The position numbers were made by a program, and so were the translations under genes. From sequence record ON711395.1: a stretch of 51,540 nt of DNA; one strand, 5' to 3'. Positions 27,615 through 43,505 of the stretch are shown in pieces. The stretch's first letter is position 1; the number at the start of each line of letters is the position of its first letter. The notes below the pieces were generated by a model. It ran no database searches, had not been told where the DNA came from, and saw only the letters and a program-made list of their open reading frames with translations. This DNA comes from Escherichia phage brachmannus.

Positions 27615-28544
27615 TTATAGCAGTGATTCGGGCTTGTAGAGTTTTCTTTCTACTCCCTGTTTAAAATTATCGTTAACAGGCATCATTATGTCAAGCCCTC
27701 TTTCCTCTGCCGCGATTATCACATCACGATCATCTTTCCGGCAGACTACGCGCATTCTTCTTTCTCCTTTATATCTATGCGCAACCATTTCAAGATTTGA
27801 AGGAGTAAAACAGGCCCACACCTCTTGACCAGTTGATAAATGAACATGCTGAGAATCAACCCAATCAAGGCACAAATAGATCGTCTTATCTGTACTACCT
27901 GTTTTAACAACAGATCCTCGCGTGTAGTCGCGAGCTAAAAACCAATCCTTTCCATCCTCATCAATGAAAAGCACGTTACACATTTCATCATCCAGCCCGT
28001 CATCATGCACCAGGTGACAAGGTAGCGCGTGAATGTATCGACCATCCTTGACGCCGCAATCATAATGACAATCTTCCGGCGGATATATCCCCTCATAAAC
28101 GCTTAAAGGTGTGCGATCGAATTTTAATGTTTTTGCCATCACTTTTTCGCAACATTCATGACTTGCCTGTTTCCCGAACGAGTAACCAGAAGAACGCGAA
28201 GCGCATTTGTTTGCTCTGATCCTGTAATCTTGTGGCACTTTTCCGAGGAAGCGGCCCAAAATGTTGATGGCCTCGCTGTAAGGTTCGCCAGTTAATTTCA
28301 TTAACCAACCGATCCCCGTGTCGTTGCCGCACACGTTGCAGATCGCGCCGCCGTCGCCCTCTTCATTTAGCTTATCAGTCCATCTAAAACGATCCTTACC
28401 GCCGCAGTGTGGGCAAGGTTGATGCTTTTTGTTGAAAACATCGCTATGCAGTCCGCAAATGCTTTGTAGTGCTTCACGCCATAACCCCTTCATATATGGC
28501 AAAACATCTTCTTTCTGATAGGTCATAAAGTTTTCAGTATTCAT
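27615..28544 (-). CDS. DNA primase (zinc-binding)
   Basis: CPHCGG...CNVCG zinc ribbon; acidic toprim-like region; ATG at 28542-28544 with GAGGT RBS. Confidence 0.6.
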   Translation of the reverse strand: MNTENFMTYQKEDVLPYMKGLWREALQSICGLHSDVFNKKHQPCPHCGGKDRFRWTDKLNEEGDGGAICNVCGNDTGIGWLMKLTGEPYSEAINILGRFLGKVPQDYRIRANKCASRSSGYSFGKQASHECCEKVMAKTLKFDRTPLSVYEGIYPPEDCHYDCGVKDGRYIHALPCHLVHDDGLDDEMCNVLFIDEDGKDWFLARDYTRGSVVKTGSTDKTIYLCLDWVDSQHVHLSTGQEVWACFTPSNLEMVAHRYKGERRMRVVCRKDDRDVIIAAEERGLDIMMPVNDNFKQGVERKLYKPESLL

Positions 28545-29163: not shown

Positions 29164-31161
29164 ATGATTCCAAATATCGAAAAACAAATATCAGCATTAG
29201 GCGAGGCAGTAATAAAAAGCATCCAAGAGCGATTCACGGTTGGCAATATAGTGCCTTATCCTTATCAGTGCGTTGCGTATGCAGAGATCGCAAAGCGCAT
29301 GAAAAACTATGATCATCCTTTCTTTGTTAAGGCTTCTGTATCGGCTGGCAAAACATTGATGTTTGCGATGGTTGCGGCGCAATGCCGCAAAATGGGATTG
29401 AAAATGATGGTCCTTGCTCGCCAGGCTGAAATTGTTGATCAGGATTCGGAAGAGATCAGCAATCTTGGCGTGCCAAACTCAATCTATTGCGCCGGACTGA
29501 AAACAAAAAGCGCATACTTTCCGATCGTAGTAGGTTCTGAGGGCACTGTAGTAAACGGATTGTTTAAGTCGTTAGGTGATTATGTTCCGCACGTTATCGG
29601 TATTGATGAATGTCACCAGGTGGATTGGGAGGATCTCGCGGACGCGATAGAAAATAATGAATCTTACCAGCAGATGACCACTAAGAAGGATTTGCCTGTA
29701 CTGATTGGAGAAGAACAGCAATTTGATTCCAATGGCGATCCAATGTTCGGAACAGGGCGCACACAGTACACCGTAATAATCATGGAAATGATGCGTAGGT
29801 GTCGCGAGGCATACGGGCACGAATTGCGAATATTCGGCATGACTGGATCTGAGTTTCGCGGCGTGGTTACAATACTGGTTGAAGATAAGAACAAAAAGGG
29901 ATTCTGGCGTGAGCAGGTGACTAACATAGACACAAACTACTTAATCAAATTCGGTTCGGTAGTGCCAACAAACTTCGGCGACGTAGGCGACCTGGGTTAT
30001 GACCTTTCAGAGTTCGAAGCCAGTAGCGAGGATGGCGTTTCAGACTTTGACGCTAAAACATTGCGCAAGATGGAAGAAAAGATCCATCAAGACGCAACAA
30101 TGACACAGAAAATCATGGCTAAAGTCCATGAGATATGCAAAGACAGGAACGGAGTTTTAGTTACATGCGCAGGGGAAAGGCACTGCAAGGAGGCCGCCGC
30201 CGCACTGCCGCCAGGCGTTGAATACAGGATCATAACTGGCAAGACTGGAGATAATCAGCGTAAAGAGTGGCTGAGGGAGGCATACGAGGGAAAAGTAAAA
30301 TACATCTTCCAGGTACAGGCGCTTACCACTGGCGTTAACGTTCCGTTTTGGGATACTTCGGTAATACTGAGAAAAATAGGATCTCTAACATTGCTTATCC
30401 AGCTTTTGGGGCGCGGCATGCGACTGCTTAAGCAATGGCACATTGAGCAGGGATTCAAGAAAAAAGATCATCTTGTATTGGATTTTGCAGGTACTATGGA
30501 TGAGTTAGGTGATTTGTATTTCGATCCAATCCTTGAGCAAGCGCAATTCCAAAAGAGATTTACAAACGGGAAAGAGCCTAAGACTTGTCCGATATGTGGA
30601 ACGCTAAACAGCTTTTACGCTCGCCGATGTATGCACGTAGACGATAACGGGAAGCGATGTGAGCATTTTTGGACTTACAGAATTTGCGAGGATCAGGTAG
30701 ATCAGAGAACGAAAAAGATAATCAAGCGCGGTTGCGGAACAAAAAACGACGTAGTGGCGAGAGTATGCCGTTGTTGCGATATTTCTCTTGTCGATCCTAA
30801 CGAGAAGTTAAGCGGTAAGCACTACACCAAAAACGATTGGTGCAACGTTAAATCTTTCCGCGTTGATATGACGAAAAACCAGAAAGGAATTATTTTTTGC
30901 TATGAGCTTGAGGCCAACGGCGATACGTTCAAGGCATACGAAAGATTTTTCCCTGAGTCAGAAAGCAACATTTGCCGGACGATATGGAGAAAAATAGCAT
31001 TGCAGCACATACCGGATCGCAAGATTGCTGGTATGGTGGCGAGCTATAGAAATGCTCGTAAAATAATGTCATACGCTCATCACATCATGCCGCCTGTACG
31101 CGTAACGCATCGCAAAAACGGCAAAGGTGAGGATAACATTGCAAAACGGGAGTTTGTTTAA
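29164..31161 (+). CDS. SF2 DNA helicase (DExH-box) with C-terminal Cys-rich domain
   Basis: Walker A SVSAGKT, DECH box, multiple CxxC pairs in C-terminal third. Confidence 0.75.
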   Translation: MIPNIEKQISALGEAVIKSIQERFTVGNIVPYPYQCVAYAEIAKRMKNYDHPFFVKASVSAGKTLMFAMVAAQCRKMGLKMMVLARQAEIVDQDSEEISNLGVPNSIYCAGLKTKSAYFPIVVGSEGTVVNGLFKSLGDYVPHVIGIDECHQVDWEDLADAIENNESYQQMTTKKDLPVLIGEEQQFDSNGDPMFGTGRTQYTVIIMEMMRRCREAYGHELRIFGMTGSEFRGVVTILVEDKNKKGFWREQVTNIDTNYLIKFGSVVPTNFGDVGDLGYDLSEFEASSEDGVSDFDAKTLRKMEEKIHQDATMTQKIMAKVHEICKDRNGVLVTCAGERHCKEAAAALPPGVEYRIITGKTGDNQRKEWLREAYEGKVKYIFQVQALTTGVNVPFWDTSVILRKIGSLTLLIQLLGRGMRLLKQWHIEQGFKKKDHLVLDFAGTMDELGDLYFDPILEQAQFQKRFTNGKEPKTCPICGTLNSFYARRCMHVDDNGKRCEHFWTYRICEDQVDQRTKKIIKRGCGTKNDVVARVCRCCDISLVDPNEKLSGKHYTKNDWCNVKSFRVDMTKNQKGIIFCYELEANGDTFKAYERFFPESESNICRTIWRKIALQHIPDRKIAGMVASYRNARKIMSYAHHIMPPVRVTHRKNGKGEDNIAKREFV

Positions 31162-31580
31162 TGGCTATAACTGATAAAGGAGATTATCTTGAGTTTTACG
31201 AAAGAGATCCAACCGACACGAGAAAGGAAGTTAATCACCAGATAGATAGCTTTCAGTGGTTGACTTATGCTCATCCTTATTTGCTAGCGTGGCATACGGT
31301 AAACGAGAATGAGAAGTCGAAAGTAACGGCGATGATTGATCAGCAGTCCGGCTTGGTTAAGGGGGTAAGCGATTTCATCATCCTGATTGGTTCAAACGGA
31401 AAATACCCCTTTGCAGCGATTGAGATCAAACGAGTGAATAAATCAGGCAAGGGGAAAGCATCACCAGTCAGCGATGAACAAAAGGCTTTTTTGCGTCGCG
31501 TTCGCAGCTTAGGAGGATTCGCTGCGGTCGCCTACGGATTTAATCAGTTTAAGTTAGCTATTGAATACATGCTTAAATAG
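31161..31580 (+). CDS. VRR-NUC-like PD-(D/E)XK nuclease
   Basis: motif GVSDFIIL...AIEIK; start overlaps helicase stop. Confidence 0.5.
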   Translation: MAITDKGDYLEFYERDPTDTRKEVNHQIDSFQWLTYAHPYLLAWHTVNENEKSKVTAMIDQQSGLVKGVSDFIILIGSNGKYPFAAIEIKRVNKSGKGKASPVSDEQKAFLRRVRSLGGFAAVAYGFNQFKLAIEYMLK

Positions 31581-35197: not shown

Positions 35198-35589
35198 TGA
35201 AGAAATTTTTAATCGCACCAATCGCAATGGCGGTGATCTTGTCTGGATGTTCAAGCGTTACGCCACTGACCGGATTAATCGGCAGTAAGCCGGAAATCAC
35301 AGCACAGGCTGGCGCGGAGAACGTGAAGCAGACAGTCGGCATTACAGCAAAGCAGGACACTAGCACAAAACAGGAAACCACAATAAAGGAATCTGCGGTT
35401 GATAAGGTGGACACGTCCAGCAAGAAGGATTTCACAACATCAACCATTCAGGCCAATACCATCAAGGCAGACAAAATTCAGGTCGTGCAGGGTAATAACG
35501 GCAGATGGTACGATCCAATAATCATATGCGTGGTTGTGTTCATTGTGCTGATTTGTCTTTACTGGAGGGAAAAGAAAAAGGAGGCTTAA
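35194..35589 (+). CDS. unimolecular spanin (u-spanin, T1 gp11-like)
   Basis: N-terminal lipoprotein signal with lipobox LSGC plus C-terminal transmembrane helix; start overlaps endolysin stop. Confidence 0.7.
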
Positions 35590-35603
35590 TGCCTCCTTTG
35601 TTA
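35574..35603. terminator. bidirectional terminator after lysis cassette
   Basis: AGGAGGC-TTAAT-GCCTCCT with flanking A and T tracts. Confidence 0.6.
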
Positions 35604-35783
35604 TTCGATACGCTTTACAGTAACCAACAAAACGCCGTCTTCATCACACAAATTATGCTCTGATATATCAAACGCTCGCATGTCAGAATGAATGAGCGTT
35701 AACATTGCGTGCATGAAGTCGTCATGTGAGATTTGAGAAGTGGCGCAAAATTTAAGAATTTCATCTATCAGTTTACTTTCCAT
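35601..35783 (-). CDS. hypothetical protein
   Basis: about 60 aa from internal ATG (MESKLIDE...). Confidence 0.35.
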   Translation of the reverse strand: MESKLIDEILKFCATSQISHDDFMHAMLTLIHSDMRAFDISEHNLCDEDGVLLVTVKRIE

Positions 35784-36246
35784 GATTTTTGTGGTAGCCA
35801 AATTTAACCTCCGCCTGTTCCCTTGCCTTAATTGCATCATCAAGACTTAAAAAATATCCTAAATGCACGCTCTTACCGTTATCATATATAGTTGCGTGCC
35901 ATCTTTTGTTTTTCTTATTCCAGCAAACACCAACTCGACCAGAGTTATTTCTTTTTAGTAGAGATACGTTTTTGCTGTTATCTAATCTTGATGCAAGCCT
36001 TAGATTTTCAATTCTGTTATCGCTCCTATTGTGCCATATATGGTCTATTTCCATTCCTTCTGGTATTTTTCCATTGTGCATTTCCCATATTATCCTATGC
36101 GCCAAAAACAATACACCATTATACCTTATTCTCACATATCCATTTTCACATACACATCCCGCAACGCTTCCAGGCTTTGCTTTCCCTCTTCTGTTTCTCC
36201 ATCTCAATATTCCATTGTCATATATAAATACTTCATTCCAATCCAT
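35773..36246 (-). CDS. HNH homing endonuclease with AP2-like domain (paralog of 16428-16904)
   Basis: EIDHIWHN...NLRL HNH motif; AT-rich, AGA/AGG codons; similar to first HNH gene. Confidence 0.8.
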   Translation of the reverse strand: MDWNEVFIYDNGILRWRNRRGKAKPGSVAGCVCENGYVRIRYNGVLFLAHRIIWEMHNGKIPEGMEIDHIWHNRSDNRIENLRLASRLDNSKNVSLLKRNNSGRVGVCWNKKNKRWHATIYDNGKSVHLGYFLSLDDAIKAREQAEVKFGYHKNHGK

Positions 36247-36628
36247 ATCTTTTCCTTAGAGCTTTTATTTGTTGTCTATTAGCTTTTGCCTGGAACAATT
36301 CATCATCGCCCATCTCCCCTATTCTCGCCATATCCCTGATCCAGTCGTTGCGCATACCATCCAGGCTATACAATTCGAATCCGAAAGGCCGCTTTGACGA
36401 TCCTTTGGACCAGTATTTACCGCAGACCCCATCTATATAGCCAGCCGTCATCATTCTTGCGCAAAATTCCTTAGATGTAAGGCTGGCGAACATTCGCGGC
36501 GTAAGTCCGGCGGCCCGTGCGAGCCGCTCGCATTCTCTATGCTGATAGATAAATTTGGCTATGTGCTGCCTGTTAAACCAGTCGTATGACTCACACCATT
36601 TATACAGATCAAGCAAAAACATAATCAT
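36233..36628 (-). CDS. hypothetical protein
   Basis: 131-aa ORF, overlapping neighbours. Confidence 0.45.
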   Translation of the reverse strand: MIMFLLDLYKWCESYDWFNRQHIAKFIYQHRECERLARAAGLTPRMFASLTSKEFCARMMTAGYIDGVCGKYWSKGSSKRPFGFELYSLDGMRNDWIRDMARIGEMGDDELFQAKANRQQIKALRKRYGLE

Positions 36629-38205
36629 CCCAGCAGTATTGGATTGACAAAAATAACACCATTAATCACGCAAACATAATTTCTTTCTTCCAGCATTGGC
36701 AGCAAGTGCCCCTCTATCCTCTTCATTACGCCAGCCTGACCAACGAAAGGTTTTACCTTTCTCGCTGATTCGTACAGGGCGCGAATATTCAGAATCCCTT
36801 TATTAGCCTTGCCGTGTCTAGTGATCAATTCAATCAATTTGCCCATTTCAGCATCATCACCAGCATAACCAGAAGCATTGGCGGCGCTAATGTATGTTTT
36901 GCTCAATTCCTGAAACATGATCAACGCCTCTTGCATTGTTTCCACGTCGATCTCTTTCGACTTCTGCGGGTATCCAGCAGGATTAAACCAGTTGCGGATA
37001 ACATGCAGGACGGAAGCAAGCCTGATCACCTGTTTATCCATTTTACCCAGCGCGCCGCGTAACATTGTATGAGAATACTTTCCGCCGTCTGCAAGATGCG
37101 GTTCCATATCCTGGCGAGCAATGTTGAGCACTCGCATAGCTGAACGGCTTATTTTCAGCGATATATTTGATTCGCTCATGATGTTATGCACCAATTGATA
37201 ATATTGGGCCTTCAATTCAGGATCCACCGCCTCATAGGTAGAATCACCATTTTCATCAATGAATGAGCGACGGCCTAAGAATGATCCCTCTCGGACCAAC
37301 AAAAAACGCTCACTAACACCGATGCCTCGCGATCCAGCGTCCATGATTCCGCTTATCGTTTCATCCTGGGCTATGACGCTCATACATCCAAGCGCGCGAA
37401 AACTCATATTATTGTCAGCATTAGCACGGGCAATTGATACGTGACCATTATCCCACGCCTTAAGCACTAACTCACTGTTAGTCTTCCTTTCGCTATTTGC
37501 ATAGGTCAAGCCTAACAGACTGTTAATACTTGTTGCTTCATCAGATATTACGGCAAAGTTACCTTGCTTGTTGTTGATTTTCGCCAAGCCTTCTGGAGTT
37601 GTATCTGAAACAGGAAAAGTTATATCACACATTTTTTCCAGCTTTTCCTCCAGATCCTCTTTTTCCTGGTATAGAGATTCCATATCAGCGCCGGATCTTT
37701 CGCTTTTCATCTCCTTTGCAAGACCTGCCAACTTTGCCTGTATTTTCTTTCTTTCCTTGCGGCGTTGCTCGTTGATCTTCTCAACTTCCGCAATCATCGG
37801 AGCAATAGCCATACTGTTGATTGCAGATTTACCAGTTGACGGCGGTTGGCTTGTAACGACGTAAAGCGCAGTCGGCTGATCGGTTCCGTGATAGTCAACC
37901 GTAAAGCGTCCAAGCATAGCGGCAGAAATGCAGCCGATAAAGTGCATGTAAGCCGATGATTCAGGGAATTGAACGGATCGCGCAATGCTGCGTGATAGCT
38001 TGCCGACAACATCAATATCATTACCAAGAGAAATAACGGGGTAGCGATCGTGGCCGCTATTTACATCCTTCACGTCGCCCCAAAAGCTGGACGACTGGCG
38101 ATAGCCGTTAGCCTGAATTGATACGCGAACTGGTGAAAGGTTCTGGCTTTCAGCCATAGCGATTATTTGCTGTGGAGTTAATTTGTTCGTTTCTAATGAA
38201 AACAT
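36625..38205 (-). CDS. P-loop ATPase, possible replication-associated helicase-like protein
   Basis: 526 aa; Walker A-like QPPSTGKSA and Walker B-like AVISDEATS. Confidence 0.4.
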   Translation of the reverse strand: MFSLETNKLTPQQIIAMAESQNLSPVRVSIQANGYRQSSSFWGDVKDVNSGHDRYPVISLGNDIDVVGKLSRSIARSVQFPESSAYMHFIGCISAAMLGRFTVDYHGTDQPTALYVVTSQPPSTGKSAINSMAIAPMIAEVEKINEQRRKERKKIQAKLAGLAKEMKSERSGADMESLYQEKEDLEEKLEKMCDITFPVSDTTPEGLAKINNKQGNFAVISDEATSINSLLGLTYANSERKTNSELVLKAWDNGHVSIARANADNNMSFRALGCMSVIAQDETISGIMDAGSRGIGVSERFLLVREGSFLGRRSFIDENGDSTYEAVDPELKAQYYQLVHNIMSESNISLKISRSAMRVLNIARQDMEPHLADGGKYSHTMLRGALGKMDKQVIRLASVLHVIRNWFNPAGYPQKSKEIDVETMQEALIMFQELSKTYISAANASGYAGDDAEMGKLIELITRHGKANKGILNIRALYESARKVKPFVGQAGVMKRIEGHLLPMLEERNYVCVINGVIFVNPILLG

Positions 38206-38257
38206 TCGTTAGCTTCTCCTTTGTGGGCCGTAAATTTTAACGGCCCAATACTACCCC

Positions 38258-38276
38258 GTTTTGTCAAAAAGTGCTA
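38258..38276 (-). promoter_or_regulatory. conserved motif variant (TTGACA form) + hairpin, minus strand
   Basis: minus strand TAGCACTTTTTGACAAAAC; overlaps stop of 38274 gene. Confidence 0.55.
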
Positions 38277-38495
38277 TTTGATCCGCTCTATTGCAACCAG
38301 AAGTCGATCAGGCTGGCGGTCGCTGTAGCATTCTCCTGCAATCCCATCCTTAAACGTAAAGTAAAGCGCCTTATGATATGAAAAACCAATCAGCCAACCT
38401 ACCGCCGTTTTTTTGATGGGCCTGACTATATCGCCAGGCTTGAAAGTCTTTGTGGTAGAATGCGTTACTTTGTAACGGTTTTCACTGTTTATCAC
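38274..38495 (-). CDS. hypothetical protein
   Basis: 73 aa, stop codon embedded in motif copy. Confidence 0.45.
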   Translation of the reverse strand: MINSENRYKVTHSTTKTFKPGDIVRPIKKTAVGWLIGFSYHKALYFTFKDGIAGECYSDRQPDRLLVAIERIK

Positions 38496-38878
38496 AGATA
38501 TTTGCCCTCAAACAGATAACAGCCGCCAGCAGAGAATCCGACCTCTTCACGGTACAGGTTCCAGCGGTCGCCGCACTCATCAAAAACATAACCCGCAACG
38601 CTTCCAAGCGGTCGCCCTTTCTCGATCTGGTATCGCTTGCCCTGCTTAAAGTGCTTTTTGCACGGCATGTTATGATCTACAAACGTGCAAAGAACGGTCT
38701 TTGTGTTAATTGCGCGGTAATCATCTCGGTTTGCTGGAAGCCAACGGCTACCCTTAACAAGCGTCTTAACCTGGAACTCTTCCACCTCGATCACATCATT
38801 ACTTCCTGCAATCTTCTGATAAACAGTTTTAAAACGGCCTTTCATCAATACGTTGGTTTCATTACAGATAACATTCAT
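38492..38878 (-). CDS. hypothetical protein
   Basis: 128 aa downstream of motif-hairpin cassette. Confidence 0.45.
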   Translation of the reverse strand: MNVICNETNVLMKGRFKTVYQKIAGSNDVIEVEEFQVKTLVKGSRWLPANRDDYRAINTKTVLCTFVDHNMPCKKHFKQGKRYQIEKGRPLGSVAGYVFDECGDRWNLYREEVGFSAGGCYLFEGKYL

Positions 38879-38932
38879 GATTAGATCTCCTTTGTTTGTT
38901 CGATGTGATTATGCCAGGTTTTTACACCTGGC

Positions 38933-38950
38933 TTTTAACAAAAAGTGCTA
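38933..38950 (-). promoter_or_regulatory. conserved motif + hairpin GCCAGGTG...CCTGGC + CATAAT, minus strand
   Basis: overlaps stop of methyltransferase-like gene; upstream of 38878 start. Confidence 0.6.
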
Positions 38951-39658
38951 TTTTGAGTTTGACTCAAAGACGGCGCGAGCAAAGCCGCGCGGAGTGAGGG
39001 AGCGGATCATCTTTGTGCGCGATGACTTGCCGCCAGTTTTGGCCCAGCCTGGATTATCTTTGTCTTCCTCTTTCGGCAGGATTAAAGCGCGCGGAGGAAT
39101 AACAAAGCCGTTGCCAGTCCAGAGGCACGTTCTCTTAAAGTAGCGATCCCGCGCCGGAATAATATCAGGGAAGTCGGGATGTTTATCATCTTCCGGCAGA
39201 TAGCCAGCGTAATCGCACGGATGGAACGTATAATCAGGCTTACGCCATAACGTTGACAACTTGCCAACCGGATTTTCGATCATGTAAGGAACACCGAAAT
39301 AATCAGCTATATCAGCCGCGATTCTGCAAGTGTCTGCGGCCTCATCCTGGAACGATGGATTCTCAAGGCGTTTTTTGGCCCAATGGCGAGATCCGCTATT
39401 TGCAAGGTCGGTGCAAGGAGGGAACGCCATAATAAAATCAGGATTGCCCCACTCATTATTGATTGCCTTAACATAAAAAGCATCATCAATCCAGACGTTA
39501 ACGTATTCGATATTCTCATGCTGTATGCGCACTGACTGGTAATCACCGTGATCGCCGCCGTCAGCATTAAAGCAAATGCACTTATATCCATTATCAGCCC
39601 AATCTTTAACGGCTTTACCAGATCCATCAAATAGGGAGAATATTAAACCTTTATACAT
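38948..39658 (-). CDS. C5-cytosine DNA methyltransferase-like protein (short, no obvious target-recognition domain)
   Basis: motifs LFDGSG (I), FPPC (IV), ENPVG (VI), GNGFV (X-like), SLTPRGFARAV C-terminal; ATG 39656-39658 with GAGGT RBS. Confidence 0.5.
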   Translation of the reverse strand: MYKGLIFSLFDGSGKAVKDWADNGYKCICFNADGGDHGDYQSVRIQHENIEYVNVWIDDAFYVKAINNEWGNPDFIMAFPPCTDLANSGSRHWAKKRLENPSFQDEAADTCRIAADIADYFGVPYMIENPVGKLSTLWRKPDYTFHPCDYAGYLPEDDKHPDFPDIIPARDRYFKRTCLWTGNGFVIPPRALILPKEEDKDNPGWAKTGGKSSRTKMIRSLTPRGFARAVFESNSK

Positions 39659-39668
39659 CGTCATTACC

Positions 39669-39893
39669 TCAAAACGGAAAACAGCGCGGACAACCAGGAT
39701 CGAAAACGCATCCACAATCATTAACAATCATAGTGGGATCTGCAAATATTGCGCTTGATTCAAGATCCATATCCATATCACCTAAAGCCTCATCAAGACT
39801 CTTAATTTTATATGCCACTTCAAGCGCCGCCTCTTTATTTAGTCCGGCATCTTCTGCCATTTGAAGGCGCTCAAAAAATCCGTCTTGACTCAT
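39669..39893 (-). CDS. hypothetical protein (Cys-rich C-terminus)
   Basis: 74 aa; CGC...CPRC pattern. Confidence 0.4.
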   Translation of the reverse strand: MSQDGFFERLQMAEDAGLNKEAALEVAYKIKSLDEALGDMDMDLESSAIFADPTMIVNDCGCVFDPGCPRCFPF

Positions 39894-40018
39894 CGCATAA
39901 TCCCCTTAATAACAGCCAAGATAATAGCCATGCCAGCAGCAGTAACCAAAAAACAAACCGCGCCAATAATCGAATAAAAAAAGAAATCAATAGCTTTATC
40001 TATCACTTTCCACCTCAT
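39890..40018 (-). CDS. small hydrophobic membrane protein (42 aa, not in ORF track)
   Basis: manual translation MRWKVIDKAIDFFFYSIIGAVCFLVTAAGMAIILAVIKGIMR; stop overlaps next gene start (ATGA); no clear RBS. Confidence 0.3.
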   Translation of the reverse strand: MRWKVIDKAIDFFFYSIIGAVCFLVTAAGMAIILAVIKGIMR

Positions 40019-40048
40019 TTAAAAGGCGGCAACACGCCGCCAGATTAA

Positions 40049-40276
40049 TTAAAGAGCGCGCCAGCTTTGAATATAGAAAGCGTTTTCTTCCAGTAATTCT
40101 TTTAACTGATCTTTATTGTATTTGCGCACCTTACCGCCTGGATGGATACCAATAAGATAGCCGCCTTTGCCCTCGGTGATAGTGATTTGGCTAATTCCAC
40201 AAGACTTATCAAGTTTTACAGCCACGCGGTGATGAGCGTCAATAGTTGACATAATGTTTAAAACTTTTGCTTTCAT
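40049..40276 (-). CDS. hypothetical protein
   Basis: 75-aa ORF followed by hairpin+T-run. Confidence 0.45.
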   Translation of the reverse strand: MKAKVLNIMSTIDAHHRVAVKLDKSCGISQITITEGKGGYLIGIHPGGKVRKYNKDQLKELLEENAFYIQSWRAL

Positions 40277-40384
40277 TTAAATATCCTCAATTGAAATATG
40301 AATGGCGTCGTGCTCTTTTTCCGTCGCCGACGTAATGGTAATTTGCAACCGCTACCATCCAGGCATTTTTGAAAATAAATAGCC

Positions 40385-40597
40385 TCATTTATTATTTTTC
40401 ATCTTAAATTTATGGCCTGGAACACCAGCACCAATATAGCCATCGTTGTATCCCATTAAATAAAGGCGAAGGCCATTATCTGAAATTACATGAGGATATT
40501 CTTTGAGATTTCCCATTAGCGGGTATTCTTTTCCGCGCGTAAATCTCCAAGTTGAGTCATAAGTTTCTACGCATTTAAGTTTTAATTGCTTTGCCAT
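40385..40597 (-). CDS. hypothetical protein
   Basis: 70 aa; TAATG overlap with upstream gene. Confidence 0.45.
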   Translation of the reverse strand: MAKQLKLKCVETYDSTWRFTRGKEYPLMGNLKEYPHVISDNGLRLYLMGYNDGYIGAGVPGHKFKMKNNK

Positions 40598-40794
40598 TAG
40601 ATGATCTCCATGTATGTTTCAAAGCCATTTAACTTGAACAGGTCGTTTTCACATTTGCGAACGTTCCAAGTTAGCCCTGAGTGGTACGCCTCCATATCAT
40701 CAAGGTCAATGGTGATTTCAGCACCTTTCTTAAACAAACCTTTTTCGTGAGACTTGTCGCGCTTAACAACTTTAACATCAACCTGATTTTCCAT
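40597..40794 (-). CDS. hypothetical protein
   Basis: 65 aa. Confidence 0.45.
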   Translation of the reverse strand: MENQVDVKVVKRDKSHEKGLFKKGAEITIDLDDMEAYHSGLTWNVRKCENDLFKLNGFETYMEII

Positions 40795-40848
40795 CTTTAA
40801 ATCCTCGTTTGTTGTCGATGCGCTTACTATACCAATCAGCAGCGCATC

Positions 40849-40868
40849 GTTTTTAACAAAAAGTGCTA
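40849..40868 (-). promoter_or_regulatory. conserved motif + 8-bp hairpin + TATAGT, minus strand
   Basis: minus strand TAGCACTTTTTGTTAAAAAC then CGATGCGC...GCGCATCG. Confidence 0.6.
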
Positions 40869-40869
40869 T

Positions 40870-41133
40870 TTAGTCCAGAAATTCGATTTCACGCTCTCCA
40901 GTTAACGGATCTACAAGCCAGAATCCGAGCGGTTCGCCGTGCATACCGCCATAGAATCCAAGCGCCGCCAGATCTTCACCTTTAACAAATACCAGGTTTC
41001 CGCTACGGCTTACGTGAGACACGTTAACGATAACCGGAAATGTGCGATCCTTAAATTCGGGCCGCAGGGCGTAACACCCGTTATTGAGCAAGCGTGCTTT
41101 GCGCTTAACTGGAATAGGTGCATTAATTTTCAT
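40870..41133 (-). CDS. hypothetical protein
   Basis: 87 aa; stop embedded in motif copy. Confidence 0.45.
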   Translation of the reverse strand: MKINAPIPVKRKARLLNNGCYALRPEFKDRTFPVIVNVSHVSRSGNLVFVKGEDLAALGFYGGMHGEPLGFWLVDPLTGEREIEFLD

Positions 41134-41359
41134 GGTTATTACTCCTTATCGTAAAGATTTAAAGACGTATAGTTTATTTCGGTAACTATATATCCGCATT
41201 GTTATTTCTCGCAGCGCAATATATTCCTTCCTGTTTTCCGGAAGACTGGCGAGCAACAACAGGCAGTATTTATAAGCGCGGTCAAGATTCCTTTCCGTGC
41301 CCCTGCAATATCCCTTGTTGCGCCTGGAGCGGTACAGCCATAACAATTTCTTGAACATT

Positions 41360-41569
41360 TCAGATACGCCCATACAGATCGCAAACTTCGTTGATAAAAC
41401 AGCGTTGAGACTCTTTATCCTGCTTCTCAAAAATTGCGCGGCATTCAAACTTAAGATTATGCACGATGACTACAACCATATTTTCAGGCATTGAGCGGTT
41501 ATAGCGTCGCGCGTCAGTGATTAAAACATCCATACCCATCTCATGTGCTTTCTTGATCACATCCAACAT
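41360..41569 (-). CDS. hypothetical protein
   Basis: ATG with GGAGAAG RBS; alternative overlapping ORF 41146-41448 judged less likely. Confidence 0.35.
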   Translation of the reverse strand: MLDVIKKAHEMGMDVLITDARRYNRSMPENMVVVIVHNLKFECRAIFEKQDKESQRCFINEVCDLYGRI

Positions 41570-41823
41570 TTTTTCTTCTCCTGCAATAAGCAAACATCAT
41601 TGATAAAATCAGCACGGCCCTTAATGTTGCTGATGTGGAACGTCTTTTCAGCGTACAGGCCATCACCTTCAATCACGATCATTACGCGAGTCGGTTTATT
41701 CACTGGCGCACACGAAAAGAGTGGTCGCGCCGGAAGAAATTTAGTGGTCACATCCAGGTTAGCCCTGGCGGCCCTGCAAAACGCCTCCGCCAGATCCAAA
41801 TCATTTTCGGTAATCACCGCCAT
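41557..41823 (-). CDS. hypothetical protein
   Basis: 88 aa. Confidence 0.45.
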   Translation of the reverse strand: MAVITENDLDLAEAFCRAARANLDVTTKFLPARPLFSCAPVNKPTRVMIVIEGDGLYAEKTFHISNIKGRADFINDVCLLQEKKKCWM

Positions 41824-42095
41824 TACTTTTTGATCTCCTTACTGATAAATTTCAGCACCTGGCGCAAGAAAACTTCGTTGTTGATAGTCGCTGGCAATTC
41901 TTCTTTCACTTCTTGCGGCAGATAGATATTGCCGTGCCAGGTCAAGCAATCGTAGTTGATACGATAAGAGCAAAGCCACTCGCAATCGTTATCTGCTTCC
42001 CAAATGCAGAGTTGCAGAACATCGCCAAAATCTTCAACAGTCAGATCCAGACCGTGACGCTTAGCGAAATTGAAAGTGGTTTTGCTGATGTTCAT
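41823..42095 (-). CDS. hypothetical protein (first gene of minus-strand early block)
   Basis: 90 aa downstream of motif-hairpin cassette. Confidence 0.45.
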   Translation of the reverse strand: MNISKTTFNFAKRHGLDLTVEDFGDVLQLCIWEADNDCEWLCSYRINYDCLTWHGNIYLPQEVKEELPATINNEVFLRQVLKFISKEIKK

Positions 42096-42154
42096 TTACT
42101 ATCTCCTGAGCGGTTCGTTTCGATGTGTGTAATGTACCCGATCAGGCGGCCTGA

Positions 42155-42173
42155 TTTTTAACAAAAAGTGCTA
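42155..42173 (-). promoter_or_regulatory. conserved motif + hairpin, minus strand, upstream of first minus-strand early gene
   Basis: minus strand TAGCACTTTTTGTTAAAAATCAGGCCGCCTGAT. Confidence 0.55.
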
Positions 42174-42713
42174 TTTGACGGTTAGCACCAGGATTGTGAT
42201 CGAAATAATCAAAAGTAATCATTCGTAATCAAATCACGTCAAAATGATGATTGCCTTTGCAAATTTGATGAGAAAAGTAATCACGTTTAATCATTGGTTG
42301 CAGGGGAGATAGTGAAACCTTCCCCTCTTGCCTCACTTTTCCGCCCGGCTGTCAGTGGTTGTTATGTTCCGTTCCCGCCTGTTCTTTTGTTGACCTTCCG
42401 CAAAATACGATAACAAAAAATAACAAACAGTACCTATATAATACATTGAAAAATAAGTATTATTTATTTATATGTATCTATATATTCTCTTTTGTTATCT
42501 TGGTTATTGTGGTATTTGGTGGGGTATATAGTTTTTGTGTATCTGTATGTGTGTATGGGTATGTAGGGGGCATATATATCTATATGGCACTTTCCGCGAG
42601 AAAACTTCGATAACAGGCAATGATAACATTGATTTATAAGGAAAAATAACGCCCATATTGTTATTGTGCCACCATATAAAATTGATAAAACACGCGGGAA
42701 CAAGAAAAAACAG

Positions 42714-42742
42714 TTGACACATTAAATAGCATTATTGATAAT
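42714..42742 (+). promoter_or_regulatory. sigma70-like promoter TTGACA-17-GATAAT upstream of plus-strand early array
   Basis: consensus -35 and good -10 about 30 nt upstream of AGGAGG RBS of 42772 gene. Confidence 0.6.
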
Positions 42743-42771
42743 GCCGACACCTAACAACCAGGAGGTAGAAA

Positions 42772-43236
42772 ATGAGCGAGCAATCATTCACTGACACGCT
42801 GCGCCGTGCAGCTATTATGCTGGCTAATGGCGAGGAAGAGACGATCAAGATTCCTGACGCGTATTTGCAGGTCCACATGTTCGGTAAGAAGTCGGCAAGC
42901 AATCCGGCGGCCTACATTCGCCAGATCATGAGTCGAGTGCCAGAAGTCGCCGAGCGGGGGCGCGTATCCGTTACCCGTGGCGTTTACGGGCCGGAAGATG
43001 AAAACTTCGGTAGCACTTTCTACGAGGTGCGGATTGTTGAAGGCCGTCGCAAGGTTTACAACAAAGAGGCACTGGAAAAGGCAGTGCGCCAGGCTAAGCG
43101 CAAGGTTGCAGAGGCGATCATTGATATGTCACCAAACCTGGCAAACTATGCGCCGGAAGAGTACGAAACATTATCAAAGGCCGTCGCTGACTTTCACGCG
43201 ATGATCAAAAAAACTTTCCTGGAGGATGAGCAATGA
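42772..43236 (+). CDS. hypothetical protein (first plus-strand early gene)
   Basis: 154 aa, AGGAGG RBS, downstream of TTGACA-17-GATAAT promoter. Confidence 0.55.
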   Translation: MSEQSFTDTLRRAAIMLANGEEETIKIPDAYLQVHMFGKKSASNPAAYIRQIMSRVPEVAERGRVSVTRGVYGPEDENFGSTFYEVRIVEGRRKVYNKEALEKAVRQAKRKVAEAIIDMSPNLANYAPEEYETLSKAVADFHAMIKKTFLEDEQ

Positions 43237-43505
43237 AAAAGGCATTAATCAGCGTTTTGGCGGCAATGGCATTCCTGACCGGATGCAAAGAAGATGGCGC
43301 GCATGTTGGCAATGTGCAGATGGCTAACCCTGGCGATGACTACAGCGTAAGGGAGCTATTCACCGCTGACGGTTGCACCGTTTACCGATTCTATGACGAT
43401 CGCACTGTTTACTTCACCAACTGTAAGGGCACGACTATCTGGGAAGTGTCGAAAAGCAATGGCAAAGGCACGAAGACAGAACATATGACCGTCGAGACAA
43501 AATAG
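43233..43505 (+). CDS. small lipoprotein
   Basis: signal peptide with lipobox LTGC. Confidence 0.5.
   Translation: MKKALISVLAAMAFLTGCKEDGAHVGNVQMANPGDDYSVRELFTADGCTVYRFYDDRTVYFTNCKGTTIWEVSKSNGKGTKTEHMTVETK

What the first reader, a model, noticed from the sequence alone, without database searches (positions are those of the whole stretch)
36625..38205. Large P-loop ATPase of unknown role in the minus-strand early block
The 526-aa protein has Walker A-like (PPSTGKSA) and Walker B-like (AVISDEATS) motifs but is distinct from the SF2 helicase at 29164-31161. It may be a replication initiator or helicase-like ATPase, or an ATPase with anti-defence function.
Basis: partly seen in the sequence, partly recalled or inferred. 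Interest (0 to 1): 0.4.

Follow-up and report, generated by a model that had tools for sequence, protein, structure and literature searches.

The report
MCM-like DUF3987 helicase of T1-like phage
The gene encodes the DUF3987-family, MCM-like ring-helicase ATPase that all T1-like phages carry and that databases already call "DNA helicase"; it is most likely the phage's own replication-fork helicase, so the finding is real but ordinary.

Summary
The ORF at 36625-38205 (minus strand, 526 aa) is real, and so are both motifs. It is not an orphan ATPase. It matches Pfam DUF3987 (E=1.4e-43) and PHROG 2373 "DNA helicase" (E=9e-244). The surrounding 3 kb (36000-39000) is 98.5% identical in DNA to phage tonnikala (Warwickvirus, Drexlerviridae), where the same-length gene, gp15, is annotated "DNA helicase". 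The T1 orthologue is ST9.

Relatives are fused to, or sit next to, DnaG-type or AEP primases. One PriCT-DUF3987 protein (AgaPH) has been shown to be a Walker-dependent 5'-3' helicase.

The window encodes a DnaG-type primase, an SSB, Erf and a RecE-like nuclease, but no polymerase was found. I therefore read this protein as the phage's replicative helicase, possibly self-loading, working with the phage primase and host Pol III. Fold and family are shown here. The replicative role, oligomeric state and polarity are inferred.

Already known; low interest.

The parts
36625..38205 (-). CDS, 526 aa: DUF3987-family AAA+ (MCM-like, superfamily 6) helicase; orthologue of tonnikala gp15, SECphi27 gp11 and T1 ST9
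38216..38220 (-). Shine-Dalgarno AGGAG, 10 nt upstream of the ATG
   Evidence: read from the sequence
38020..38205 (-). N-terminal region, residues 1-62: three short helices (11-21, 25-33, 36-41) followed by a linker. It has no OB fold and no zinc module. Its function is unknown; primase or partner contact is only a guess.
   Evidence: secondary structure; searches give no separate fold match
36916..37965 (-). DUF3987 domain (residues 81-430), i.e. the AAA+ core plus helical lid
37825..37848 (-). Walker A / P-loop, QPPSTGKS (residues 120-127); K126 is invariant
   Evidence: K in 141/141
37633..37824 (-). Long antiparallel helical hairpin (residues 128-191) that extends the Walker A helix. It is an insertion relative to MCM. 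The Lys-to-Glu spacing is 97 residues here, with a family median of 98 and a range of 54-106.
   Evidence: helices 126-168 and 172-191. It also caused the spurious coiled-coil hits.
37591..37599 (-). Conserved TPE motif (T203 in 140/141, E205 in 139/141) just before the helix that precedes the Walker B strand; role not assigned
37537..37557 (-). Walker B, FAVISDE (residues 217-223). E223 is invariant. The Asp position (D222) is Asp in only 57/141 relatives (Ala 46, Ser 32).
37396..37443 (-). Beta-hairpin (residues 255-270) immediately before the sensor-1 strand, in the position of the MCM pre-sensor-1 hairpin. It carries invariant R260; position 263 is Arg in 125/141 relatives. The DNA-contacting role is inferred.
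   Evidence: strands 255-258 and 267-270, then strand 273-279
37360..37374 (-). IAQDE at the end of strand 273-279; Q280 (140/141) is in the sensor-1 position (inferred)
37303..37314 (-). SERF (residues 298-301) just before strand 301-305. R300 is invariant and is the candidate arginine finger, by analogy with the MCM 'SRF' motif (inferred).
   Evidence: (MCM sequences show LLSRFDL)
37033..37059 (-). RGALGKMDK in the lid helices (residues 383-391). K388 is invariant and R383 is kept in 103/141. This is the candidate sensor-2 region (inferred).
36628..36858 (-). C-terminal winged-helix domain (residues 450-526); it is a separate PHROG (7327) on its own
36233..36628 (-). Downstream 131-aa ORF (labelled 'YdbL' in relatives, phrog_2794, unknown function). 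Its start overlaps the helicase stop by 4 nt. Relatives, T1 (ST10) included, also have a small ORF directly downstream; homology of ST10 was not tested. A possible accessory role was also not tested.
27615..28544 (-). DnaG/T7-type primase (309 aa, zinc ribbon). It is the inferred partner of the helicase and lies about 8 kb away in another transcription unit.
   Evidence: Zn_Ribbon_Prim, E=4.6e-15; phrog_510 'DNA primase', matching only the first half of the 667-position profile

Best explanation
The gene encodes the DUF3987-family AAA+ helicase of a T1-like phage (Warwickvirus, Drexlerviridae). The proposed mechanism follows. The AAA+ cores assemble into a ring, probably a hexamer. ATP is bound by the P-loop (K126) and hydrolysed with E223. 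R300 of the neighbouring subunit acts as arginine finger. Basic residues on the hairpin before sensor 1 (R260) pull single-stranded DNA through the pore and unwind the phage duplex. The C-terminal winged helix and the small N-terminal domain are proposed to target the ring to DNA or to partners. The ring would work with the separately encoded phage DnaG-type primase, the phage SSB and the host Pol III holoenzyme, because I found no DNA polymerase gene in the window ORFs I scanned and the TLS paper says T1 and TLS have none. Shown here: gene, family, motifs, MCM-like fold, winged helix, conservation across Drexlerviridae, and linkage with primases in relatives. Inferred: ring formation, polarity, which residue plays which role, and that this protein rather than the SF2 helicase drives the fork.
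Against: No experiment exists on the T1-like protein itself. The primase is not adjacent here; it is 8 kb away in a different transcription unit. The phage has a second helicase (SF2), divergently transcribed from a site close to the primase and separated from it only by a small regulator gene, and the TLS paper treats that one as 'the' helicase. My own profile-profile comparison with a 3-sequence MCM profile was not significant, so the MCM link rests on the predicted structure and on the published HHsearch result. The Walker B aspartate is not conserved in the family. No iterons or other origin-like repeats lie next to the gene. The ring state could not be modelled.
Confidence: 0.72

Rival explanations
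1. It is an MCM-like motor for recombination or repair (branch migration, D-loop extension, recombination-dependent replication), like ComM or MCM8/9. On this view the fork helicase is host DnaB or the phage SF2 helicase.
Against: Family members are fused to primases and to the DnaB N-terminal primase-binding domain. This is the signature of fork helicases and is not known for ComM or MCM8/9. The one tested family member works with a primase-polymerase. SF2 helicases paired with VRR-NUC are not known fork helicases in phages (own knowledge).
Confidence: 0.15
2. It is an origin-binding AAA+ initiator or loader, like ORC/Cdc6 or DnaC, that opens the origin and loads host DnaB but does not itself translocate.
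Confidence: 0.1
3. It is an anti-defence or host-takeover ATPase unrelated to replication.
For: It lies in a block of small early genes of unknown function. A 128-aa SECphi27 protein, possibly the orthologue of the 128-aa ORF two genes upstream, is reported to trigger Mokosh type I.
Against: It has no match to defence or anti-defence families; PADLOC gave only a coiled-coil artefact. It is a core gene across Drexlerviridae and in Akira-like and Vibrio phages, syntenic with a primase and an SF2 helicase. Anti-defence genes are typically accessory and variable (own knowledge).
Confidence: 0.03

Closest known systems
DUF3987 (Pfam PF13148) helicases, including the characterised PriCT-DUF3987 helicase AgaPH of Seonamhaeicola sp. 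S2-3 (PMC11724360), E. coli CP4-57 YfjI (own knowledge) and phage proteins such as Corndog and N4 dns (PMC4889955)
   Same: The domain matches end to end (profile positions 3-350 of 364). It has Walker A GK[ST], a Walker B glutamate and a C-terminal winged helix. A PriCT_2-DUF3987 fusion shares 29% identity over residues 66-519. It is linked to primases at the genome level.
   Different: Here the protein stands alone, with only a 60-residue helical N-terminus instead of PriCT or a primase. The primase is of DnaG type and lies 8 kb away, rather than being an adjacent AEP PrimPol. Activity, polarity and oligomeric state are untested for the T1-like proteins.
MCM helicases (archaeal MCM, eukaryotic MCM2-7, MCM8/9), superfamily 6
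   Different: It lacks the N-terminal OB-fold and zinc domain. It does not hit Pfam MCM, and my profile comparison was not significant. It has a 64-residue helical hairpin inserted after the P-loop helix. Sensor 1 is Gln rather than Asn. The Walker B Asp is variable. The one tested DUF3987 helicase runs 5'-3', opposite to MCM.
Self-loading MCM-like or AAA+ helicases of staphylococcal mobile elements: Cch of SCCmec (5dgk) and SaPI Rep / DUF927 (7ola, 8tch)
P4 alpha / D5-type SF3 primase-helicases
   Same: The functional logic is the same: primase, ring helicase and winged-helix DNA binder in one replication module. The window's primase matches only the primase half of a 667-position primase profile (phrog_510). 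T1's primase is annotated as similar to a prophage CP-933 'alpha replication protein' and to the phi-R73 primase.

Membership tests
DUF3987 (PF13148) helicase family | Significant full-length match to the family profile | tested here: met
   149.9 bits against a cut-off of 27, E=1.4e-43, profile positions 3-350 of 364. PHROG 2373 E=9e-244.
DUF3987 (PF13148) helicase family | Walker A GxxxxGK[ST] and a Walker B acidic residue, both required for activity in AgaPH | tested here: met
   QPPSTGKS at 120-127 and ISDE at 220-223. K126 and E223 are kept in 141/141 relatives. The Asp before the Glu is variable in the family.
DUF3987 (PF13148) helicase family | [quoted passage not shown] | tested here: met
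DUF3987 (PF13148) helicase family | Association with an AEP or DnaG primase, fused or encoded nearby | tested here: inconclusive
   A DnaG-type primase is in the same genome but 8 kb away. In relatives the primase is fused or lies within 1-3 kb.
DUF3987 (PF13148) helicase family | Oligomeric, ATP-dependent DNA unwinding | not testable with these tools
   Known only for AgaPH (PMC11724360).
Superfamily 6 / MCM-clade AAA+ fold | AAA+ core most similar to MCM | tested here: met
Superfamily 6 / MCM-clade AAA+ fold | Pre-sensor-1 beta-hairpin with a conserved basic residue, and an arginine finger before strand 5 | tested here: met
   The hairpin at 255-270 precedes strand 273-279 and carries R260 (141/141). 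R300 (141/141) in SERF precedes strand 301-305. The assignment rests on position; coordinates were not superposed.
Superfamily 6 / MCM-clade AAA+ fold | Sequence-profile relationship to MCM | tested here: inconclusive
   hhalign against a 3-sequence MCM core profile aligned only the P-loop (E=0.066). Published HHsearch gave 98% probability for the phage Corndog DUF3987 protein.
MCM family proper (PF00493, with N-terminal domain) | N-terminal OB-fold and zinc DNA-binding collar, and a Pfam MCM match | tested here: not met
   The N-terminus is about 60 residues of short helices. Pfam MCM did not hit even at E<=1.
SF3 helicases (D5, P4 alpha, E1, LTag) | SF3 AAA+ core and D5_N or SF3 profile matches | tested here: not met
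Known anti-phage defence or anti-defence proteins | Match to a PADLOC model | tested here: not met
   only JetC at E=0.012 over residues 138-196, which is the coiled-coil hairpin.

The most novel reading that the evidence does not exclude
The T1-like DUF3987 protein is a self-loading initiator-helicase. Its winged helix would recognise an unmapped phage origin. The MCM-fold ring would then translocate 5'-3' on the lagging strand, as AgaPH does and opposite to MCM. It would dock the phage DnaG-type primase and capture host Pol III, making T1-like phages independent of DnaA, DnaB and DnaC. The family-specific helical hairpin after the P-loop, and the 131-aa ORF directly downstream whose start overlaps the helicase stop, would be the adaptor elements.
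Probability: 0.3. Interest if true: 0.45.

Novelty: already known. Interest (0 to 1): 0.15.

Why it matters
T1-like phages are a classic model and a frequent laboratory and fermentation contaminant, yet their replisome has never been reconstituted. Recognising the DUF3987 protein as the likely fork helicase, rather than the SF2 helicase that the TLS genome paper nominates, tells experimenters which gene to mutate or purify. It also offers a tractable E. coli system for asking how an MCM-fold ring can run 5'-3' with a bacterial-type primase and a borrowed host polymerase. As a genome-scan finding it adds nothing new: the family, the fold class, the predicted role and the annotation are all already in the public record.

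Tried and rejected
1. Sequence search of the PDB with the protein and with a 34-sequence profile gave only coiled-coil noise (Augmin, designed helical proteins). No solved homologue is detectable by sequence.
2. NCBIfam gave no match.
3. PADLOC gave only a JetC coiled-coil artefact, so the anti-defence reading was rejected.
4. hhalign of the DUF3987 alignments (34 and 141 sequences) against a small MCM core alignment, built from PDB sequences printed, was not significant. Only the P-loop aligned. I could not reproduce the published sequence link to MCM. The cause is probably the shallow MCM profile and the 64-residue insertion.
5. The second word-indexed homologue search with the alignment returned almost the same set as the first and added only 7 new proteins.
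6. A repeat search for iterons or an origin near the gene (35500-43500) found nothing convincing next to it, only short AT-rich repeats in the divergent intergenic region around 42100-42770.
7. Promoter and terminator scans were at or below the shuffle expectation.
8. Rfam gave no RNA family anywhere in the window.
9. The supplement of PMC4889955 is not held, so I could not confirm that the authors listed T1 itself.
10. A literature search for host dna-gene requirements of T1 found nothing in the library.
11. The plus-strand ORFs inside the gene (51-98 aa) were not searched separately. The homologous region in relatives is annotated only with the minus-strand gene.

Full report
**Observation**

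The window has one long ORF at 36625-38205 on the minus strand. It has an ATG start and encodes 526 aa, and the end coordinate includes the stop.
- An AGGAG lies 10 nt upstream of the ATG.
- The stop overlaps the ATG of the next ORF (36233-36628) by 4 nt.
- PPSTGKSA is residues 121-128 and AVISDEATS is residues 218-226.

**What the window is**

The 3 kb around the gene is 98.5% identical to Escherichia phage tonnikala (Warwickvirus, Tempevirinae, Drexlerviridae). It is about 98.5% identical to SECphi27, swan01, tonn and others.
- In these RefSeq records the same-length gene is annotated "DNA helicase" (tonnikala gp15, SECphi27 gp11).
- tblastn finds a homologue in 925 phage records, 910 of them at full length.
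- T1 itself has one (ST9, 58% identity, also labelled "DNA helicase").
- More distant copies (about 36% identity) occur in Akira / Vi II-E1-like phages, and one at 27% in a Vibrio phage.

It is thus a core gene of T1-like phages.

**Family**

- Pfam: DUF3987, E=1.4e-43, residues 81-430.
- PHROGs: phrog_2373 "DNA helicase", E=9e-244. The C-terminal 85 residues also match a separate family, phrog_7327.
- NCBIfam gives nothing.
- PADLOC gives only a coiled-coil artefact.
- An exhaustive HMMER search of 1.84 billion cluster representatives finds 2,496 relatives at E<=1e-3.

**Fold**

An AlphaFold2 model built on a 34-sequence alignment is confident (mean pLDDT 88.7, pTM 0.86). Its parts in order are:
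- three short N-terminal helices (residues 11-41);
- an AAA+ alpha/beta core starting near residue 66;
- a helical lid;
- a C-terminal helix-helix-helix-strand-strand winged helix (residues 450-526).

The sequence-level link to MCM could not be reproduced with the shallow MCM profile I could assemble. Kazlauskas et al. 2016 report 98% HHsearch probability for another phage member of the family.

**Motifs**

I aligned 141 divergent representatives to the family profile.

| Residue | Conservation | Position in the model | Proposed role |
|---|---|---|---|
| K126 | 141/141 | P-loop | Walker A lysine |
| E223 | 141/141 | end of strand 217-221 | Walker B glutamate |
| R260 | 141/141 | hairpin 255-270, before the sensor-1 strand | DNA contact, as in the MCM pre-sensor-1 hairpin |
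| Q280 | 140/141 | end of strand 273-279 | sensor 1 |
| G296, R300 | 141/141 | GVSERF, before strand 301-305 | arginine finger, like the MCM SRF |
| K388 | 141/141 | lid helices | sensor-2 region |
| T203 / E205 / E306 | 140 / 139 / 139 | before the helix preceding Walker B; E306 after strand 5 | not assigned |

- The residue before the Walker B glutamate is Asp in only 57/141 relatives (Ala 46, Ser 32). The family's Walker B is therefore non-canonical.
- Between Walker A and Walker B lies a 64-residue antiparallel helical hairpin (residues 128-191) that MCM lacks. The Lys-to-Glu spacing is 97 residues here, with a median of 98 and a range of 54-106 among relatives.
- The roles in the table are assigned from position in the predicted secondary structure. 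They do not come from a coordinate superposition and are inferences.

**Link to replication**

Long relatives carry the DUF3987 module at the C-terminus of:
- a DnaG CHC2 zinc ribbon (P0162);
- a PriCT_2 domain (P0230);
- the DnaB N-terminal primase-binding domain (P0200).

The viral structure library adds fusions to PrimPol, Toprim and NrS-1-type domains. P0230 aligns with residues 66-519 of the window protein at 29% identity, E=3e-47. The whole helicase-plus-winged-helix module is therefore shared.

Phage Akira has DUF3987, a primase, an SF2 helicase and exonuclease VIII within 7 kb. Vibrio phage BUCT006 has DUF3987 with a primase and another annotated helicase within about 5 kb downstream.

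The window encodes:
- a DnaG/T7-type primase (27615-28544);
- an SF2 helicase plus VRR-NUC (29164-31580);
- Dam;
- a RecE-like nuclease;
- Erf;
- an SSB;
- an Mre11-like exonuclease.

No DNA polymerase was found in the window ORFs I scanned. The TLS paper notes that T1 and TLS have none.

**Literature**

- DUF3987 was classified as a divergent SF6 (MCM-related) helicase with a C-terminal wHTH. It was predicted to be a phage replicative helicase, often fused to or next to AEP or DnaG primases (PMC4889955; PMC5862659).
- In 2025 a PriCT-DUF3987 protein, AgaPH, was purified. It is oligomeric and binds its PrimPol. It unwinds 5'-tailed and forked DNA with ATP or dATP, and it is dead when Walker A or B is mutated (PMC11724360).
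- The 2024 TLS paper still names only the SF2 protein as "the helicase" of T1-like phages.

**Mechanism proposed**

A ring of this AAA+ protein would unwind phage DNA at the fork. ATP hydrolysis would depend on K126 and E223 in cis and on R300 in trans, with R260 hairpins in the pore. The ring would cooperate with the phage primase, the phage SSB and host Pol III. The winged helix may provide DNA or origin targeting.

I put 0.72 on this. The fold and family part is above 0.9.

| Rival | Confidence |
|---|---|
| Recombination or branch-migration motor of the ComM / MCM8-9 type | 0.15 |
| Non-translocating initiator or loader for host DnaB | 0.10 |
| Anti-defence ATPase | 0.03 |

No origin-like iterons flank the gene. 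No Rfam family is present in the window.

**Verdict**

The gene is an already annotated member of a described family, so novelty is "already known" and interest is low (0.15). What remains open is experimental:
- nobody has shown activity, polarity, ring state or essentiality for the T1-like protein;
- the 5'-3' polarity reported for an MCM-fold relative makes it a reasonable model system.

Noticed in passing
window 38492-38878 (-): A 128-aa ORF of unknown function (phrog_2684) lies two genes upstream of the helicase and corresponds in position and length to SECphi27 gp13, in a stretch that is 98.6% identical in DNA. [quoted passage not shown] This may be that protein, but I could not see their table to confirm it.
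   Followed up: partly
window 35773-36246 (-): An HNH_3 plus AP2-domain homing-endonuclease gene lies downstream of the 'YdbL' ORF. Among the 25 best megablast hits only tonnikala covers window 36000-36272; all the others start matching at 36273. The HNH gene therefore looks like a recent mobile insertion. T1 has a different HNH gene abutting the other end of its helicase gene (ST8).
   Followed up: partly
window 36233-36628 (-): A 131-aa ORF (phrog_2794, labelled 'YdbL' in relatives, no Pfam hit) has a start codon that overlaps the helicase stop (ATGA). T1 has a small ORF (ST10) in the same position; its homology was not tested. It could be a helicase accessory or loader.
   Followed up: no
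window 27615-28544 (-): The 309-aa primase matches only positions 7-316 of the 667-position PHROG 510 'DNA primase' profile. It looks like the primase half of a longer primase or primase-helicase type of protein. T1's primase note calls it similar to an 'alpha replication protein' of prophage CP-933 and to the phi-R73 primase.
   Followed up: partly
window 38225-38246 (-): A perfect 7-bp GC-rich hairpin (GGGCCGT...ACGGCCC) lies in the 68-nt gap just upstream of the helicase ribosome-binding site. No T-run follows it. It could be an RNA stability or processing element or a weak attenuator.
   Followed up: no
window 42100-42770: An AT-rich intergenic region sits between the leftward block that contains the helicase and a rightward block. 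It holds several short direct and inverted repeats (D2, D3, D9, D10, I2, I7, I8) and the best sigma-70-like match in the scan (TTGACA-17-GATAAT at 42714-42742, + strand). It is a candidate early promoter region or origin.
   Followed up: no
phage records MG065643.1 (Campylobacter phage E6) and OR786094.1 (Streptococcus phage MBBL140): Records labelled as Campylobacter (21 records) and Streptococcus phages carry this helicase at 80-88% protein identity to an E. coli T1-like phage. This suggests mislabelled hosts or contaminating coliphages in those submissions.
   Followed up: no
relatives P0098, P0107, P0111, P0112, P0118; BFVD A0A0N6WGC8 and A0A6M5CCU5: Several T1-like phage records hold truncated, split or multi-stretch versions of this helicase (294-451 aa). 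One Vibrio phage Vc1 protein labelled 'DNA primase' (529 aa) matches 186 columns at 74% identity. These are probably gene-calling or assembly artefacts, or genes interrupted by mobile elements.
   Followed up: no
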